Assembly (NCBI GenBank): GCA_038087875.1 | Contig: CM075987.1 | Span: 20,276,001 to 20,336,000 of the forward strand | Source: Malacoraja senta | Taxonomy: Eukaryota | DNA length: 60,000 bases | Direction of reading: 5' to 3' | Shown: positions 4,138 to 57,537 of the stretch, piece after piece | How the letters are laid out: each line of letters begins with the position of its first letter | How positions within the stretch are numbered: position 1 is the stretch's first letter | Notes under the pieces: model-generated | Told to the model about the DNA's origin: nothing | Databases searched by the model: none | The model's input: only the letters and a program-made list of their open reading frames with translations | Made by a program: the position numbers and the translations under genes

Positions 4138-5429
4138 AAATGATATTAAATTAATCAAATCATTGTTTCATAGAAGATCTTTCCTGCAAGACGACAGGAG
4201 AAACTTCCAACCTATTACTTTGGATATAATTTGTGTGATGGCCCTGTATGTAACCCACCAAACCCAATAAATCCCCAATTACTCAAATGTACTGTCTTCC
4301 AATATTTTTGTTGTAGCAAACAAAATCCTGGTTGTACTTTGTATGAAGTGAAATGGAAGCATATAAAGGCTTTTGAGAGTGCAAGGAAAAATCCACTAAA
4401 GCAGATCTCATGGTGAATGATTCCAAACAAAATTGTTTCTTTATAGCCCCAAACAGAAATTTAATAAATATATTTTAAATAATTTTTAAAATAGATTATT
4501 AAGATAAACTCTTTCTTGTGGCTGACTAGTCAAGATTCAGAAAACATTAATTTCAACTAATACACATCACAATAATTGGAGATGGTATTAGGAAAAACAT
4601 TTTTATACAAGGAGTTGTTTGGGATTTCAGCGTGCGTGTGGGTAGTATAAAGTTATTGCCTTTTGAATGTGCAGCTTTAAGACATCAGGTATTTTTTCTA
4701 TTTCATTAATTTTATATTTTTCTGTAATATCTTTGAATACATTCTAAAATAGCACCTTCAACAACAGCAAAGTGCATCACTGAGCCTGCGGTTGTGCTGA
4801 TTATGAACAAAGGTTATTGCTGAAGAGGAACTGAGAAGTACTGTCATTTGATCTTTGACATAGTTAACGTGGAAAGTGCTGCGATGGTGACGTTGCATTG
4901 AGAAGAATCCTTTTGATCTGTTATTCTTTTAGAGGCAAGGTAAATTCTAAGAGCTGGTGCACTTTTATTTTTGCTGGGCTTTTGTAAGCAGAAGATGCTA
5001 AGTTTTCAGTGCCACCCCAAATAGTCCTCCTGCTACTTGAACAATCCAGGGTCAGGAATTCTGTTGAGTTCATAGGAATGTTACTTATTTTGCAAAGAAG
5101 CCTTTGAGAATATCCTTAAATTATTTCATTTGTTGTTCTGGTCATTGTTTCCTGTGACATAGTTTGGAGTGTGTGTTTTGGCAATATGTGTTGAGTATGA
5201 CATGGGCTCTCCACTGGTCAGCCAAACCTAATTAAATTATGCCTGAAGAAGGGTCTAGACCTGAATCATCACCCATTCCTCTCCAGAGATGCTGCCTGTC
5301 CTGCTGAGTTACTCCAGCTCTTTATGTCTACTATAATTATATTAAAGATTGATTCTGTTAAGACCAACCTTTCAAGTAATGAATTTCAGATTCAGACTAC
5401 TCACATTAAAAATATTTTTTCCTCACCTT

Positions 5430-6130
5430 GTCCTTGACAGGCCCGTTTAATTGAACTACCATCTTTCTATTTACTCTTTCTAAATCAGCCACACATCCCA
5501 TCAATTCTACCTTTAAGCTGCTTTGCTCCAAAGAAAATAGCCGAGCTTCTCCATTTATTCTTTAACTGAAATCAGTAATCCCTGGAACCATTCCAATAAA
5601 TGCTTCCTGTATCCTCTCCAGGCCCTTTTGCATCCTTCCTGAAGTGTGGTGACCAGAATTGGAAACAATACTCCAATAGTGGTGTTAGCAGTGTTTTGAA
5701 AAAGTTCAACACAACTTTCCTGCCTTTGTAATCTCTGCCTCCATTTACGAATTTCGGGGTCCCATATGTTTTACTAACTCTGAACATAACCTTTCCACTT
5801 TCAAATACTTTTGCATGTGTGGAACCAAGTCCCTCGGCTCCAGCACATTCTTTGACCCTGCCATTTAGTCTGTAATGCGTCTCCTTATTCTTTATGCTAA
5901 TATATATTACGTCACTATTAAATTTATTTTACCAATTGTTTCCCTGTTCAGCCAGCCCAATACATGCAGTGTAATCTATTACTTTCTCCCTCACTATTTT
6001 ACCACGTTGCCAGGTTATCTGCACATTTGAACATTCTACCCTGCACACCCATGCCCAAATCATTACAAAATATCATCTACCCTCAATCATCCTCCCGTCT
6101 GAAAGAAACTGATTATCACAATTCTCTACA
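5430..6130 (-). mobile_element. degenerate CR1 LINE fragment
   Basis: minus ORF 5572-5787 contains LEYCFQFWSPHFRKD, the CR1 RT C-terminal motif. Confidence 0.75.
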
Positions 6131-7202
6131 TTCTTCCTTCTAAACCAATTTCTTACCCTTGCCACCATGACCATGGTAAAGCAGAATGGCATGAATCATA
6201 ACTAAATCTCTCACTCGCACACTATATGTCATTAAGCAACTCTGCTGAGCAGAACTTCAGTCAAAAATGATGACTTGTGAATTTCTCATGCACTCTGCAG
6301 AAAGGGCAATGGAGATTAAGTTACCCATGCTGTGATTAATGTTTTACTTCTGAGAGACAATTTCCAGTATCATTGCAGATGATCTTTTTCTGCCTTAGCC
6401 CCATTTTGCTTTGCACGATCATATTAAATCAATTTGCGTACCATGCCAATTCAGGAGCTTGTTATATCTTACTTTTATGTCATTCCATGCTGGTTTATAG
6501 ACACTGATAGCTTCAAATTAACATTGCTGCTTTAACATTTTCTATATTGGATTGTTTAATTTTCCATGCAAGGTTCAGTTACGTTTTAAAAGGTAATTTT
6601 CATCACTGATTTTGAGAGTAGCAGATTGAGTTGATCCCAAATTTGCCATATTGTTTTATCGCTGTGCTTTAACAGTCAAAAGCAACAGCACTTGCTTTTG
6701 ACTGTTTGACATTCCTGTTTAGGAATGCAACTATTTGAGAGGAAAGTTAATATTTAAAAAAAAACAATAACCGCTCACCAGGTTTTAATATATTCCACGA
6801 GTTAGGAGCTGCATGCTGTGGCATGAAATATCATGTTTTAAGTGGCTTTTCCGTGCACCACTAAATTTGTAAAGATGCATGCAGTTCTGCTATTGAGAAT
6901 AACAGCTGAATCTGGGCAGGTTTTACTTTGATAAGTTCACTTTGCACCTGCATTGTTTTGATAGTGTTCCAAAAGAATAAAATGCAATAAACTTGAATGC
7001 CCTGAAGTGAAGTTGCTATATCTGAGAATAGCAGGAATTTGGATGTTAGAACTGTACTTAATATGTACAAAATGTGTAACTGGATCCAAACCTAACTTTG
7101 ATTTTGATCAATGCATTGGAAAGCATGGACGTCTGTAGATTATGACAGTGCATTTATTAATGGAAGAATGTAAATCTTTTAATTCTGTGTAATCTCCAGG
7201 AA

Positions 7203-54729: not shown

Positions 54730-54851
54730 GCGGAAAAAGGAAACAGTGGAAAATCAGCCCACTTGGGTTGATGACACCAGAATAGATGCAGATGACATTG
54801 TCGAAAAAATCGTACAGAGTCAAGACTTCACAGATGTCAGTAATGTTGAAG
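54730..54851 (+). CDS. FAM102A: FAM102A coding exon
   Basis: ctccctaag|GCGG...GAAG|gtaaat; (R)[40 protein letters not shown]. Confidence 0.95.
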
Positions 54852-55979
54852 GTAAATGCCCCACTTTATCTTGCCTATTTCATCCTCGCCTAATTCTGGG
54901 ATACCATTCACAGTGCTTCATCAAGTAAATGTCACCACATCTCGCACAAAAAAACACAAAAAAAACTGGAGGAACTTGTAGGGCTGAGGGGTGCATGTGC
55001 ATGTATGCGTGTCTGCAGAATTTCAGCATTTGCAATATCTTGCTGTATCTACCTCATCTAAGTAGCTATTCGTTAGCGGCCATAATAGCAGTCAGACATT
55101 AAAATAATAACCAATTTAGAAACTGCCTCCTTTCTAGAAGGCTCCTTTTTTGTTGCTTACTTTTAGTATGTGAATGATATGACTAAGTTCATTAGAAATG
55201 CAAAGTACTATTTAAATGTCTCTGTTGATCTGCTCGATTTATGCTCAACAGCATGACTAATGCAACTGCGGAGAGCCTGGCACAATAATGGTCATGTGCC
55301 TTGGCTTCTGCTGAGGGTGACCACAATGATGTGTGGTCCTTTGATGAGACGATTGTGGAAATATGCAGATTCAACAGTTGCCAAATTTTATATTCTTTTA
55401 TTCTCAATAAGGCCACGCAAGTAAATCATCTTGAAGAAATTACTGACAGCAGAATTACTCATTATATCCACGAGTTCATTACATCTTAGCTCGTCAGTTA
55501 AATGTCATCCTTGTAGTCTTTTATATTTCCTTTTTAAATATGAATCCAGTCACTTTTAAATGATTGTATAGTTCCAGTCTCGACATGTAACACACCAAAC
55601 ATCAGCAATCTCTAATATTTTAGTGAATCACCAAAAGAACTAAAGGCAAAATGAATAGATTTTATTTAGCAAGATGTTATAATCTAAAATGTGCTACCAA
55701 AAGAATGGATTTGATTCAGTAATAACTTTCATAAGGAATTGGAAAAAGTACTTAGAAGGAGAAAGCATTTTCAACATTAAACGGGAAGGATGAGGGGGTG
55801 GCTGCAACTAATTGTTTAATTGAATATGTAATTAAAAAGTTCAGGTATAATGGTCAAACAGGCATCCTATATTTCAAAAGTTTTATTATTTCATTCAGAG
55901 TGTGTCACGTATATCAATGTGCCAATCAATGGTAACAATCTTACACTGCTTGTCCTTTCCAAATATTTCACAGATTTTG

Positions 55980-57537
55980 TTAGTGTAGAAATAGCAGGGG
56001 CTATGACAGAAATATTTCAAATGTCATTAGAAACGGGAATAGTGCTGGAGGATTGGCGTACTGCGCATGTTGTTCCGTTGTTTAAAAAGGGTTCTAAGAG
56101 TAAACCTAGCAATTATAGACCTGTTAGTTTGACGTCAGTGGTGGGCAAATTAATGGAAAGGATACTTAAAGATAATATATATAAGCATCTGGATAAGCAG
56201 GGTCTGATTAGGAACAGTCAACATGGATTTGTGCCTGGAAGGTCATGTTTGACTAATCTTCTAGAATTTTTCGAAGAGGTTACTAGGGAAACTGATGAGG
56301 GTAAAGCAGAGGATGTTGTCTATATGGATGCCAGAGAGTAATGGTGGATGGCTGTTTGTCAGGTTGGAGGCCGGTGACTAGTGGGGTGCCTCGGGGGTCT
56401 GTGTTGGGTCCACTGTTGTTTGTCATGTACATCAATGATCTGGATGATGGTGTGGAAAATTGGATTAGTAAGTATGCAGATGGTACTAAGATAGGTGGTG
56501 TGGTGGATAATGAAGTAGATTTTCAAAGTCTACAGAGAGAGTTAGGCCATTTGGAAGAGTGGGCTGAAAGATGGCAGATGGAGTTTAATGGTGATAAATG
56601 TGAGGTACTACATCTCGGCAGGACAAATCAAAATAGGACGTACATGGTAAACGGTAGAGAATTGAGGAAGGTACACAAAAATGCTGGAGAAACTCAGCGG
56701 GTGCAGCAGCATCTATGGAGCGAAGGAAATAGGCAACGTTTCGGGCCGAAACCCTTCTTCAGACTCAATTCAGACTTCTTCAGAGAATTGAGGAATGCAG
56801 TTGAACAGAGGGATCTAGGAATAACTGTGCATAGTTCCCTGAAGGTGGAATCTCATGTAGATAGGGTGGTAAAGAAAGCTTTTGGGGTGCTGGCCTTTAT
56901 AAATCAGAGCATTGAATATAGAAGTTGGGATGTAATGTTAAAATTGTACAAGGCATTGATGAGGCCAATTCTGGAGTATGGAGTACAATTTTGGTCGCCT
57001 AATTATAGGAAGGATGTCAACAAAATAGAGAGAGTACAGAGGAGATTTACTAGAATGTTGCCTGGGTTTCAGCAACTAAGTTACAGAGAAAGGTTGAACA
57101 AGTTAGGTCTTTATTCTTTGGAGCGCAGAAGGTTAAGAGGGGACTTGATAGAGGTCTTTAAAATTATGAGCGGGTTAGACAGAGTTGACGTGGATAAGCT
57201 TTTTCCATTGAGAGTAGGGAAGATTCAAACAAGGGGACATGACTTGAGAATTAAGGGACAGAAGTTTAGGGGGAACATTAGGGGGAACTTCTTTACTCAG
57301 AGAGTGGTAGCTATGTGGAATGAGCTTCCAGTGGAAGTGGTGGAGGCTGGTTCGATTTTATCCTTTAAAAATAGATTGGATGGGTATATGGACGGGAAAG
57401 GAATGGAGAGTTATGGTCTGAGTGCAGGTAGATGGGACTAGGGGGAAGTATTTTTTTTTTTTTTTAAATTTAATGTTCGGCACGGACTTGAAGGGCCGAG
57501 ATGGCCTGTTTCCGTGCTGTAATGGTTATATGGTTAC
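55980..57537 (+). mobile_element. CR1 LINE, 5'-truncated, with an internal deletion (~56330) and a nested Penelope-type insertion
   Basis: RT motifs NYRPVSLTS, QHGF, GVPRGSVLGP, LEYGVQFW; ATGGTT-type tail. Confidence 0.92.

What the first reader, a model, noticed from the sequence alone, without database searches (positions are those of the whole stretch)
5243..56764. Dispersed short repeat family carrying a minimal hammerhead ribozyme core
Seen: more than a dozen copies (e.g. 5243, 13867, 18349, 24425-24452 minus, 27980, 29192, 33969, 40085-40114 minus, 41100 minus, two at ~45225, 54262-54290 minus, 56733-56762 minus) contain CUGAAGA-A-GGGU(CUCG/UUCG)RCCC-GAAA-CGUH. This is the CUGANGA and GAAA core, a helix II whose pairing is retained between subfamilies (GGGU-CUCG-ACCC vs GGGU-UUCG-GCCC), a palindromic ACGU in place of helix III, and a GUC, GUU or AUC triplet. 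Established: Penelope-like elements carry minimal type I hammerheads with a palindromic helix III that are thought to work as dimers. Inference: a non-autonomous Penelope derivative has seeded the FAM102A pre-mRNA with potential self-cleaving motifs on both strands. Caveats: helix I is very short and an extra A follows CUGAAGA.
Basis: partly seen in the sequence, partly recalled or inferred. Interest (0 to 1): 0.72.

Follow-up and report, generated by a model that had tools for sequence, protein, structure and literature searches.

The report
Penelope retroelement tails with minimal hammerheads
The dispersed repeat is the 3' end piece of a very abundant Penelope-like retrotransposon and carries the small hammerhead ribozyme motif already known from such elements, so it is real but a known kind of thing.

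Summary
All 13 listed sites match the motif (0-3 mismatches; 0 matches in 100 shuffles). Only 5 of the 13 keep a complete hammerhead core.

The repeat is the conserved 3' module of a Penelope-like element (PLE). Copies elsewhere in the genome have open frames of up to 1250 aa encoding a reverse transcriptase followed by a GIY-YIG endonuclease. They stand in head-to-tail tandems, with the motif 120 nt after the stop codon.

The motif fits the published PLE "min-HHR" feature by feature: CUGANGA, an extra base after A9, G10.1-C11.1, GAAA, a palindromic CG in place of helix III, then UH. The 5' truncation, inverted head-to-head pairs and optional ~36-nt tail are also textbook PLE traits.

The genome holds 43,313 exact intact motifs and, by rough extrapolation, about 750,000 module copies.

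Catalysis is untested and doubtful: helix I has 2 bp, no pair covaries, and Rfam reports no hammerhead.

Two things remain unexplained:
- Short copies begin at the first bases of the hammerhead.
- The youngest subfamily has turned helix II plus GAAA into a strong self-complementary stretch.

Verdict: a new member of a known kind, of modest interest.

The parts
27914..28109 (+). Longest copy in the window: 3' UTR remnant, hammerhead motif (27980-28007, complete core, GUC) and tail. A-type.
   Evidence: (profile positions 2-198)
40016..40120 (-). Short unit of about 100 nt, B-type, complete core (C3 at 40114, GUU). Flanked by a repeat of CCTATAATTACT, read as a target-site duplication.
45131..45231 (-). 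Left arm of a head-to-head inverted pair, B-type, complete core (C3 at 45224). Ends at the internal 3' end.
   Evidence: sub-threshold miRNA-like Rfam hits on the resulting hairpin
45219..45353 (+). Right arm of the same pair, B-type, complete core (C3 at 45226), with the tail. The pair is flanked by a repeat of about TTTAGGTATAGGT.
56667..56773 (-). Short unit, B-type, complete core (C3 at 56762). 19 extra bases, including a partial direct repeat of the motif start, lie between the target duplication and the motif.
5241..5332 (+). Short unit with a decayed core (3 mismatches).
13819..13960 (.). Head-to-head pair: a 40-nt inverted tail fragment (13819-13858, -) and a short unit (13861-13960, +) whose core has G12>A.
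18329..18477 (+). Copy that extends into the 3' UTR and has the tail. The core lacks C15.2 (GAAA-GUC).
24360..24467 (-). Copy that extends into the 3' UTR. CGUC has decayed to CAUC.
29187..29283 (+). Old short unit with a decayed core.
33964..34095 (+). Unit with tail. Core has G12>A.
41029..41130 (-). Short unit. Core has C3>U. Ten extra bases lie at the 5' junction.
54195..54409 (.). Head-to-head pair: 54195-54293 (-, motif at 54264-54290, helix II ACCU) and 54290-54409 (+, which starts inside helix II).
14830..14923 (-). 5'-truncated module fragment without the hammerhead (profile positions 102-198).
44208..44279 (-). Fragment starting at profile position 91, just 5' of the predicted cleavage site (positions 96/97).
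46005..46093 (-). Old, decayed short unit.
49251..49426 (.). Old head-to-head pair, both arms decayed.
23593..23655 (+). Module fragment (profile positions 120-189).
27266..27351 (-). Module fragment (profile positions 104-194).

Best explanation
The repeat is the conserved 3' terminal module of a very abundant Penelope-like retrotransposon family. The family encodes a reverse transcriptase followed by a GIY-YIG endonuclease and is probably of the Neptune type. The module has three parts in order: a minimal type I hammerhead (28 nt), a variable linker of about 16 nt, and a conserved block of about 50 nt. An optional tail of about 36 nt follows.

Shown here: what the repeat is, where it sits in the element, how many copies there are, and which parts are conserved.

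Inferred from published work on this class: in transcripts of tandem elements, or between two RNAs, two motifs pair through the palindromic ACGU to build helix III. Each then cuts after GUC or GUU. The reaction is probably slow and helped by the element's own protein.

The element's enzyme recognises the module and copies it into new sites. It starts either at the tail end or about 36 nt inside it. This leaves mostly dead, short, 5'-truncated or inverted copies such as those in this window. Isolated intronic copies are not expected to cut the host pre-mRNA to any notable extent.
For: Parent element:
- Longer copies carry frames with YIDD (RT) and LIY..YIGET (GIY-YIG) upstream of the repeat.
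- A protein search with the RT piece gave 20,039 first-look candidates. All 150 that were scored had E <= 2.5e-86, with open frames of up to 1250 aa.
- In 4 of 4 long-frame loci fetched, the motif lies 120-121 nt after the end of the frame.
- One locus shows two units abutting head to tail, tail end against unit start.
- Pfam best hits are RVT_1 (E 7e-6) and GIY-YIG (E 1.5e-3).
- Protein-atlas look-alikes score 0.97 and are eukaryotic clusters carrying RVT_1 + GIY-YIG.
- The RT-EN linker reads CX4CX2C, the Neptune/Nematis-type motif (sequence; criterion from PMC8557442).

Motif:
- It matches the published consensus 'U-rich, NNN, CUGANGAH, G...C, GAAA, palindrome, U, H'. It also shows the four traits those authors list as non-random.
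- The descriptor hits 5 places in the window against 0.005 expected.
- The genome holds 43,313 exact matches to the family motif and 0 to the reversed control.

PLE insertion traits:
- 3' ends are bimodal: 31 of 62 at profile positions 151-167 and 26 of 62 at 184-198.
- There are 20 head-to-head pairs among 130 hits, against 3 tail-to-tail.

Conservation between five subfamily majorities:
- Mean pairwise difference is 0.114 for the hammerhead, 0.269 for the linker just 3' of it, 0.383 for the 12 nt just 5' of it, and 0.123 for the distal block.
- In the four groups with 7 or more copies, the hammerhead varies only at loop II positions 1-2, 11.4 (A/G, still pairs with U) and H17 (C/U).
- RNAalifold predicts helix II as a consensus hairpin.
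Against: - No catalysis was or could be tested here.
- Helix I has only 2 pairs (U2.1 with A or G at 1.1; G2.2 with C1.2).
- No pair covaries: the covariation term is -0.08 kcal/mol.
- Rfam reports no hammerhead, neither at gathering score on the whole window nor at E <= 10 on 40000-46000, which holds four good copies.
- Both Pfam hits are below the curated cut-offs (26.3 vs 29.6 bits; 19.2 vs 22.6 bits). PDB sequences gave nothing.
- The distal block is as conserved as the hammerhead, so selection on the module may concern recognition by the enzyme and not cleavage.
- In the youngest subfamily, a hammerhead-type dimer of the 37-nt segment is predicted at -13.3 kcal/mol, against -25.0 for a competing palindromic duplex.
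- Published work on a lizard PLE found that hammerhead mutants still insert in vitro and that no RNA-seq reads end at the cut site (PMC11167929, passages).
- Few copies start at the predicted cleavage product end: 4 of 62 begin at profile positions 91-108.
Confidence: 0.85

Rival explanations
1. The hammerhead-like core is inherited from PLE ancestors but no longer works as a ribozyme in this lineage. The module is kept because it is the recognition and priming site for the element's enzyme and because it pairs two RNAs. The palindromes serve template dimerisation, which would also account for head-to-head and tandem insertions.
For: - Helix I has 2 bp and no pair covaries.
- The distal block is as conserved as the core.
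- The two substitutions that define the youngest subfamily both extend self-complementarity. GUUUCGGCCCGAAAC forms a 14-bp self-duplex at -19.6 kcal/mol, against -1.3 for the A-type copy tested. The hammerhead dimer is disfavoured by about 12 kcal/mol.
- That subfamily is nevertheless the most recently active: 40 of 40 scored matches are about 100% identical over 226 nt.
- Published: hammerhead mutants insert normally in vitro, and PLE clades without hammerheads proliferate well.
Against: - All core positions, G10.1-C11.1, the extra base and the palindromic 15.2/16.2 are intact in the subfamily majorities with 7 or more copies. That is hard to keep without selection on the hammerhead as such.
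- Energies of short segments are crude, and a protein may remodel the RNA.
- A lizard PLE hammerhead does cut when its protein is added.
Confidence: 0.3
2. The short units of about 100 nt are a separate, SINE-like non-autonomous family with its own RNA. That RNA would begin at the hammerhead, through transcription from an initiator-like TCAGTC/TTAGTC or through processing at the polypyrimidine-YAG just upstream. The PLE enzyme would mobilise it in trans.
For: - Copy starts pile up at the motif. In 160 kb taken without regard to repeats, 18 copies start there with a unique flank and 6 abut an inverted arm, out of 33 classifiable; 13 further copies were too decayed to class.
- Of the first 41 exact B-type copies on contig 1, 20 lose homology 0-8 nt upstream of C3, 2 at 13-16 nt, and 19 extend 34 nt or more.
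- Genome-wide there are 19,101 exact B-type motifs, 13,305 with AGT and 6,816 with 10 nt of the element's own UTR.
- In all 20 head-to-head pairs one arm starts at profile positions 62-74, where C3 is 69.
- YAGU is kept upstream in all subfamilies while the rest of the UTR is unalignable.
Against: - No RNA ends could be seen. All runs on offer were contigs.
- The short units are nearly identical to the autonomous element's own module, so there is no sign of separate masters.
- In 20 young full-length copies the upstream partial copy does not start preferentially there: 13 run beyond 450 nt, and the other 7 start at seven different places, one of them 5 nt from C3.
- No tRNA-like head is present.
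- The initiator consensus is recalled, not tested.
Confidence: 0.3
3. The match to a hammerhead is chance within an ordinary LINE or SINE tail.
For: Rfam reports no hammerhead.
Against: - The descriptor is expected 0.005 times per window but is found 5 times, all in this family.
- The parent is an RT + GIY-YIG element, the class in which this motif is known to sit.
- Every non-descriptor trait listed by the describers is present.
Confidence: 0.02

Closest known systems
Minimal hammerheads (min-HHR) of metazoan Penelope-like elements (Cervera & De la Pena 2014, PMC4209133; main text and supplementary file 2 read)
   Same: - CUGANGA plus an extra base, then a helix II closed by G10.1-C11.1, GAAA, no helix III hairpin but a palindromic CG, then U and H.
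- A U/C-rich stretch upstream.
- Location in the terminal repeat of an RT + GIY-YIG element.
- Thousands of mostly solitary copies, some as nearby pairs on opposite strands.
   Different: - Helix II is short (4 bp, against the 5-8 that is usual there) and helix I is at the lower limit (2 bp, as in D. virilis).
- No host group matching this genome appears among the 40 species in their Fig. S3 text.
- The count of 43,313 exact motifs exceeds the roughly 9,000 (frog) and 4,000 (coelacanth) they report.
Canonical EN+ Penelope-like elements, Neptune/Nematis-type linker (Craig et al. 2021, PMC8557442; passages read)
   Same: - RT followed by a C-terminal GIY-YIG endonuclease, with a CX2-5CxxC linker.
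- Partial tandems that form pseudo-LTRs.
- An inverted 5'-truncated copy at the 5' end.
- A 30-40-bp tail present in only some copies.
- A hammerhead near the 3' end.
   Different: No phylogeny was made here, so the clade is inferred from the linker motif alone.
Poseidon element of Anolis (PAc) (PMC11167929; passages read)
   Same: - Reverse transcription that starts inside the 3' end would explain the two classes of 3' end seen here.
- The hammerhead lies upstream of that start site.
   Different: - In PAc the hammerhead overlaps the start of the ORF. Here it lies in the 3' UTR, about 140 nt before the next unit's ATG.
- PAc cleavage was shown, with protein added. Nothing was assayed here.
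Non-LTR retrozymes of animals (PMC7229834; bioRxiv 10.64898/2026.07.22.740005; passages and one section read)
   Same: Non-autonomous elements that carry a hammerhead and are related to PLE terminal repeats.
   Different: - Retrozymes are head-to-tail arrays of 170-970-bp units with canonical type I hammerheads, and they give circular RNAs.
- Here the copies are dispersed singles or inverted pairs. Only 7 same-strand adjacencies were seen among 130 hits.

Membership tests
PLE minimal hammerhead (min-HHR) | Catalytic boxes CUGANGA and GAAA | tested here: met
   Present in 5 of 13 window copies without change and in the majorities of the four subfamilies with 7 or more copies. The genome holds 43,313 exact motifs.
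PLE minimal hammerhead (min-HHR) | An unpaired base between A9 and 10.1 | tested here: met
   It is A in all five subfamily majorities. Criterion.
PLE minimal hammerhead (min-HHR) | Helix II closed by G10.1-C11.1 | tested here: met
   GGGU/ACCC or GGGU/GCCC. RNAalifold predicts it as a consensus hairpin. No compensatory change was seen.
PLE minimal hammerhead (min-HHR) | No helix III hairpin; palindromic 15.2/16.2, then U16.1 and H17 | tested here: met
   A-CG-U followed by C or U in all majorities.
PLE minimal hammerhead (min-HHR) | Helix I (2-6 bp in the published alignment) | tested here: inconclusive
   Only U2.1-A/G1.1 and G2.2-C1.2 can pair; the third pair would be A-C. Two pairs occur in published members such as D. 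virilis.
PLE minimal hammerhead (min-HHR) | Sits in the terminal repeat of an RT + GIY-YIG element | tested here: met
   120-121 nt after the frame end in 4 of 4 long-frame loci. A tandem junction was seen.
PLE minimal hammerhead (min-HHR) | Self-cleavage, as a dimer | not testable with these tools
   Only energy estimates are available: A-type dimer -12.7 against an MFE of -14.4; B-type -13.3 against -25.0 kcal/mol.
Canonical hammerhead (Rfam Hammerhead models) | Three helices including a helix III hairpin; score at or above the gathering threshold | tested here: not met
   No hit at gathering score on the whole window. No hammerhead hit at E <= 10 on 40000-46000.
Penelope-like element (EN+) | Reverse transcriptase followed by a C-terminal GIY-YIG endonuclease with cysteine/histidine motifs | tested here: met
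   YIDD, CX4CX2C and LIY..YIGET are in one 1250-aa frame. Pfam RVT_1 has E 7e-6 and GIY-YIG E 1.5e-3, both below the curated cut-offs. Atlas look-alikes carry both domains.
Penelope-like element (EN+) | Partial tandems, inverted 5'-truncated copies, optional 30-40-bp tail | tested here: met
   Tandem seen. 20 head-to-head pairs among 130 hits. 3' ends are bimodal, about 36 nt apart.
Non-LTR retrozyme | Head-to-tail arrays of short units, each with a hammerhead | tested here: not met
   7 same-strand adjacencies among 130 hits, most of them partial. No array was found in the window.
tRNA-derived SINE | tRNA-like head | tested here: not met
   ARAGORN finds 0 tRNA-like genes in the window. The units start at the hammerhead.

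The most novel reading that the evidence does not exclude
The hammerhead marks the start of a discrete small RNA, whose 5' end lies within a few bases of C3. This RNA would be the main template the PLE enzyme copies.

In the youngest subfamily the ribozyme has been converted by two substitutions into a strong RNA-RNA pairing site. The motif's present role would then be to bring two templates into one insertion complex, giving head-to-head and tandem inserts, and not to cut RNA.
Probability: 0.15. Interest if true: 0.6.

Novelty: new member of a known kind. Interest (0 to 1): 0.3.

Why it matters
It adds one more host genome, and a very large family, to the known link between Penelope-like elements and minimal hammerheads. 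The genome holds 43,313 intact motifs, and the module covers about 4% of the 160 kb sampled.

For annotation, these sites should be labelled as PLE tails. They are not novel ribozymes or regulatory elements of the host gene.

Two side observations could help with an open question, namely what the hammerhead does for these elements:
- Copy starts pile up at the hammerhead.
- A young, successful subfamily disfavours the ribozyme fold in favour of a self-pairing duplex.

Both can be tested with simple RNA-end mapping and in vitro cleavage.

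Tried and rejected
- **Rfam.** The gathering search of the whole window gave 0 hits. The E <= 10 search of 40000-46000 gave no hammerhead or other ribozyme. It returned only sub-threshold miRNA-like hits on the 45198/45226 hairpin.
- **RNA evidence.** No RNA holder was listed, and all 24 runs offered were contigs. 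Laying 4 of those 24 runs (X1, X2, X5, X19) gave no usable starts, ends or splice joints.
- **DNA search of the genome with an 81-nt internal piece.** It returned nothing because very common words are skipped. I used exact patterns instead.
- **Large genome samples.** I used 100 kb plus 80 small stretches instead.
- **PDB sequence search of the RT-EN half.** 0 hits at E <= 1. The best NCBIfam hit was a group I intron endonuclease at E 0.22, which is not significant.
- **A type III-like fold.** This would close the core with the upstream GACAU and the downstream ACGUC. It is possible in one A-type variant only and is absent in B-type, so I dropped it.
- **A second cleavage site at UH|AGU upstream of the core.** No pairing arms support it, so I dropped it.
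- **A long-range helix between CUGAAGAAGG and CCUUCUCUCCAG.** It is present in A-type and weak in B-type, so I dropped it.
- **More divergent PLE families in this genome.** These would have given a stronger conservation test, but I could not reach them. Searches score only the best candidates, and all of those belong to this family.
- **Literature on this host group.** Full-text searches for hammerhead + Penelope + shark and Penelope + elasmobranch found no description of this family. That the host is a cartilaginous fish is only my recollection of the repeat and was not tested.

Full report
**1. Observation**

No site is found in 100 shuffles. Aligning the sites with their flanks shows a shared element of about 100-130 nt that begins at or just before CTGAAGA. 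There are two clear sequence types:
- A-type: GGGTCTCGACCC...GTC.
- B-type: GGGTTTCGGCCC...GTT.

A structural descriptor of a minimal hammerhead is met by only 5 of the 13 sites, against 0.005 expected per random window. The other 8 carry point changes, mostly of the CpG-decay kind. A profile of the whole module finds 22 copies or fragments in the window.

**2. What the repeat belongs to**

The window's own genome is 1.94 Gb. The window is contig 11, 20,276,001-20,336,000.
- One copy used as a query gave 2,523 first-look candidates, and the scored matches extended upstream of the motif.
- Comparing those loci extended the homology to more than 800 nt.
- The frames there read ...YIDDCIG... and ...LLYIGETKRRLGDRFAEHL..., that is, a reverse transcriptase followed by a GIY-YIG endonuclease.
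- The RT piece as a protein query gave 20,039 first-look candidates. All 150 that were scored had E <= 2.5e-86, with open frames of up to 1250 aa.
- I fetched four loci with long frames (1250, 1245, 1032 and 1027 aa). In each the motif lies 120-121 nt after the end of the frame.
- In one locus two units stand head to tail. The order is frame, 3' UTR rich in C and T, motif, about 105 more bases ending ...TTCTTTAACA, and then directly the start of the next unit, whose ATG follows about 35 nt later.
- Pfam's best hits on the 1250-aa frame are RVT_1 (26.3 bits, cut-off 29.6) and GIY-YIG (19.2 bits, cut-off 22.6). Both are below the curated cut-offs.
- Protein-atlas look-alikes score 0.97 and are eukaryotic clusters carrying RVT_1 and GIY-YIG.
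- PDB sequences gave nothing.
- The linker between RT and endonuclease reads C-X4-C-X2-C. Craig et al. (PMC8557442, passages) give this as a mark of the Neptune and Nematis clades. No tree was made here.

**3. The insertion patterns are those of Penelope-like elements**

In 160 kb chosen without regard to repeats (the window plus ten 10-kb stretches) there are 62 module hits. They cover 3.97% of the bases, at 0.39 hits per kb. Extrapolated, that is about 750,000 copies, which is a rough figure.

3' ends fall in two groups: profile positions 151-167 (31 of 62) and 184-198 (26 of 62). This is the optional 30-40-bp tail of the literature. It also fits the internal start of reverse transcription shown for a lizard element.

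Among 130 non-duplicate hits in all sequence held there are 20 head-to-head pairs, 3 tail-to-tail pairs and 7 same-strand adjacencies. Target-site duplications of 8-17 nt can be read by eye around several copies.

**4. The motif against the published class**

Cervera & De la Pena (PMC4209133; main text; supplementary Table S1 and the text of Fig. S3) define the metazoan PLE min-HHR. Its parts are a U-rich stretch, a helix I of a few pairs, CUGANGA plus one extra base, a helix II closed by G10.1-C11.1, GAAA, a palindromic 15.2/16.2 with no helix III loop, then U and H.

The motif here is (C/U-rich)...AGU-CUGAAGA-A-GGGU(CUCG/UUCG/CCCG)(A/G)CCC-GAAA-CG-U-(C/U). Every listed trait is present. Helix I has two pairs, as in the D. 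virilis entry of their alignment.

Their 40 species include lamprey, coelacanth, teleosts, a frog, a turtle and a snake. No species of another fish class is listed. A 2026 preprint reports PLEs and retrozymes in one chondrichthyan among 31 vertebrates (one section read).

Rfam reports no hammerhead. That is expected for a motif without a helix III hairpin, but it is still a failed test for the canonical family.

**5. Is the core under selection?**

Copies decay after insertion. Only 6 of the 46 copies that span the motif start keep the full descriptor. The useful comparison is therefore between subfamily majorities.

I clustered 93 copies on the distal part only, which avoids circularity. This gave five groups of 25, 18, 11, 7 and 5 copies. 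Results:

| Region | Mean pairwise difference | Variable columns |
|---|---|---|
| 12 nt upstream | 0.383 | 10 of 12 |
| Hammerhead, 28 nt | 0.114 | 7 of 28 |
| Linker, 16 nt after the cut site | 0.269 | 8 of 16 |
| Distal block | 0.123 | 12 of 48 |

Three of the 7 variable hammerhead columns vary only in the smallest and oldest group.

In the four larger groups the hammerhead varies only at loop II positions 1 and 2, at 11.4 (A or G, both pair with U10.4) and at H17 (C or U). All of these are positions the ribozyme tolerates.

It is not better kept than the distal block.

RNAalifold on 15 copies from the five groups predicts helix II, but with no covariation: the term is -0.08 kcal/mol, and one sequence shows one double change.

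**6. Numbers in the genome (exact pattern counts, both strands; reversed control 0 in each)**

- Family motif CTGAAGAAGGGTYYCGRCCCGAAACGTY: 43,313.
- B-type 28-mer: 19,101.
- B-type preceded by AGT: 13,305.
- B-type preceded by 10 nt of its own UTR: 6,816.

The B-type autonomous element is young. All 40 scored matches to 226 nt across the tail/unit-start junction are about 100% identical, out of 1,288 first-look candidates.

**7. Likely mode of action**

Shown: identity, position, abundance and the conservation pattern.

Inferred from the literature: two motifs pair through ACGU to form helix III and cut after GUC or GUU. This is slow in vitro, and in one lizard element it happens only with the element's protein.

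Energy estimates for a 37-nt segment:
- A-type: the hammerhead-type dimer is at -12.7 kcal/mol and the cofold optimum at -14.4.
- B-type: the hammerhead-type dimer is at -13.3 and the optimum at -25.0.

The B-type gap arises because the two B-specific substitutions make GUUUCGGCCCGAAAC self-complementary. It forms 14 pairs at -19.6 kcal/mol, against -1.3 for the A-type copy tested, which carries a decayed CpG. These are crude figures, but they argue that the most successful subfamily does not favour the ribozyme fold.

For the host gene, the window holds one exon matching the NT-C2 domain on the + strand (26932-27084; 33.6 bits, above the cut-off). Only two intact motifs are on that strand, 17 kb apart. 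The intact pair at 45198/45226 is inverted, so it would fold into a long hairpin and not a hammerhead dimer. Effective cleavage of the pre-mRNA is therefore unlikely.

**8. Unexplained: where the short copies start**

In the 160 kb sample, of the 46 copies that span the motif start:
- 18 begin there with a unique flank,
- 6 abut an inverted arm,
- 9 run on into the UTR,
- 13 are too decayed to class.

Among the 18 that begin at the motif, GT precedes C3 in 9 and AGT in 6.

Of the first 41 exact B-type copies listed on contig 1, 20 lose homology 0-8 nt upstream of C3, 2 at 13-16 nt, and 19 extend 34 nt or more.

In all 20 head-to-head pairs, one arm starts at profile positions 62-74, where C3 is position 69.

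This is not the hammerhead's cut site, which lies 28 nt further on. Only 4 of 62 hits start at profile positions 91-108.

The upstream context is a long pyrimidine run ending in YAG|U. That looks like a 3' splice site. In D. virilis an intron ends at the same place relative to the hammerhead. The context also fits an initiator-like YYANWYY, which is a recalled motif that I did not test.

Against a transcription start for the full-length RNA: in 20 young full-length copies the upstream partial copy runs beyond 450 nt in 13. In the other 7 it starts at seven different places, one of them 5 nt from C3.

No RNA reads were available to settle this.

**9. Verdict**

The finding is real and correctly recognised. 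It is a new member of a known kind: the 3' module of a Penelope-like element with its minimal hammerhead. It is not a new ribozyme class, and nothing shows an effect on the host transcript.

Noticed in passing
window 26932-27084 (+): An exon-sized open stretch matches the NT-C2 domain (PF10358, 33.6 bits, above the cut-off). It is the only such match reported in the genome search. The window therefore lies in an NT-C2 gene on the + strand. Which gene it is was not tested.
   Followed up: partly
window 1319-3373 (+): A 685-aa open frame carries an apurinic-type endonuclease domain (Exo_endo_phos, E 3e-12) and RVT_1 (E 7e-27). This is a LINE copy unrelated to the PLE. Further RT fragments lie at 56305-57438 (+).
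   Followed up: partly
window 16206-16937 (+) and 47137-47781 (-): Open frames match the short ALKBH8_N profile (E 8e-6 and 2e-14). They may belong to another repeat family. Not examined.
   Followed up: no
window 45131-45353: The inverted B-type pair forms a near-perfect hairpin of about 200 nt. Rfam scores it as miRNA-like, far below threshold (mir-722: 40.5 bits against 81). Such pairs could feed small-RNA pathways.
   Followed up: no
L024 7700-7745 (-), unit start: The start codon of the long frame sits in CAAG|GTATGC, which looks like a good 5' splice site. A pyrimidine tract followed by CAG precedes the hammerhead about 3.9 kb downstream. Whether the ORF can be spliced out is unknown.
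   Followed up: no
L069, L086 (contig 1) and window 56736-56790: Some short copies carry a direct partial repeat of the first 10-13 bases of the motif (GAAGAAGGGT) between the target duplication and C3. This suggests a template switch at the RNA 5' end.
   Followed up: partly
module profile positions 113-160 (e.g. window 28024-28071): A second conserved block contains AUGCUG...CAGCAU, which can pair, and a small hairpin GCUG/CCAG that RNAalifold predicts. It may be the enzyme's recognition site. No covariation was seen.
   Followed up: partly
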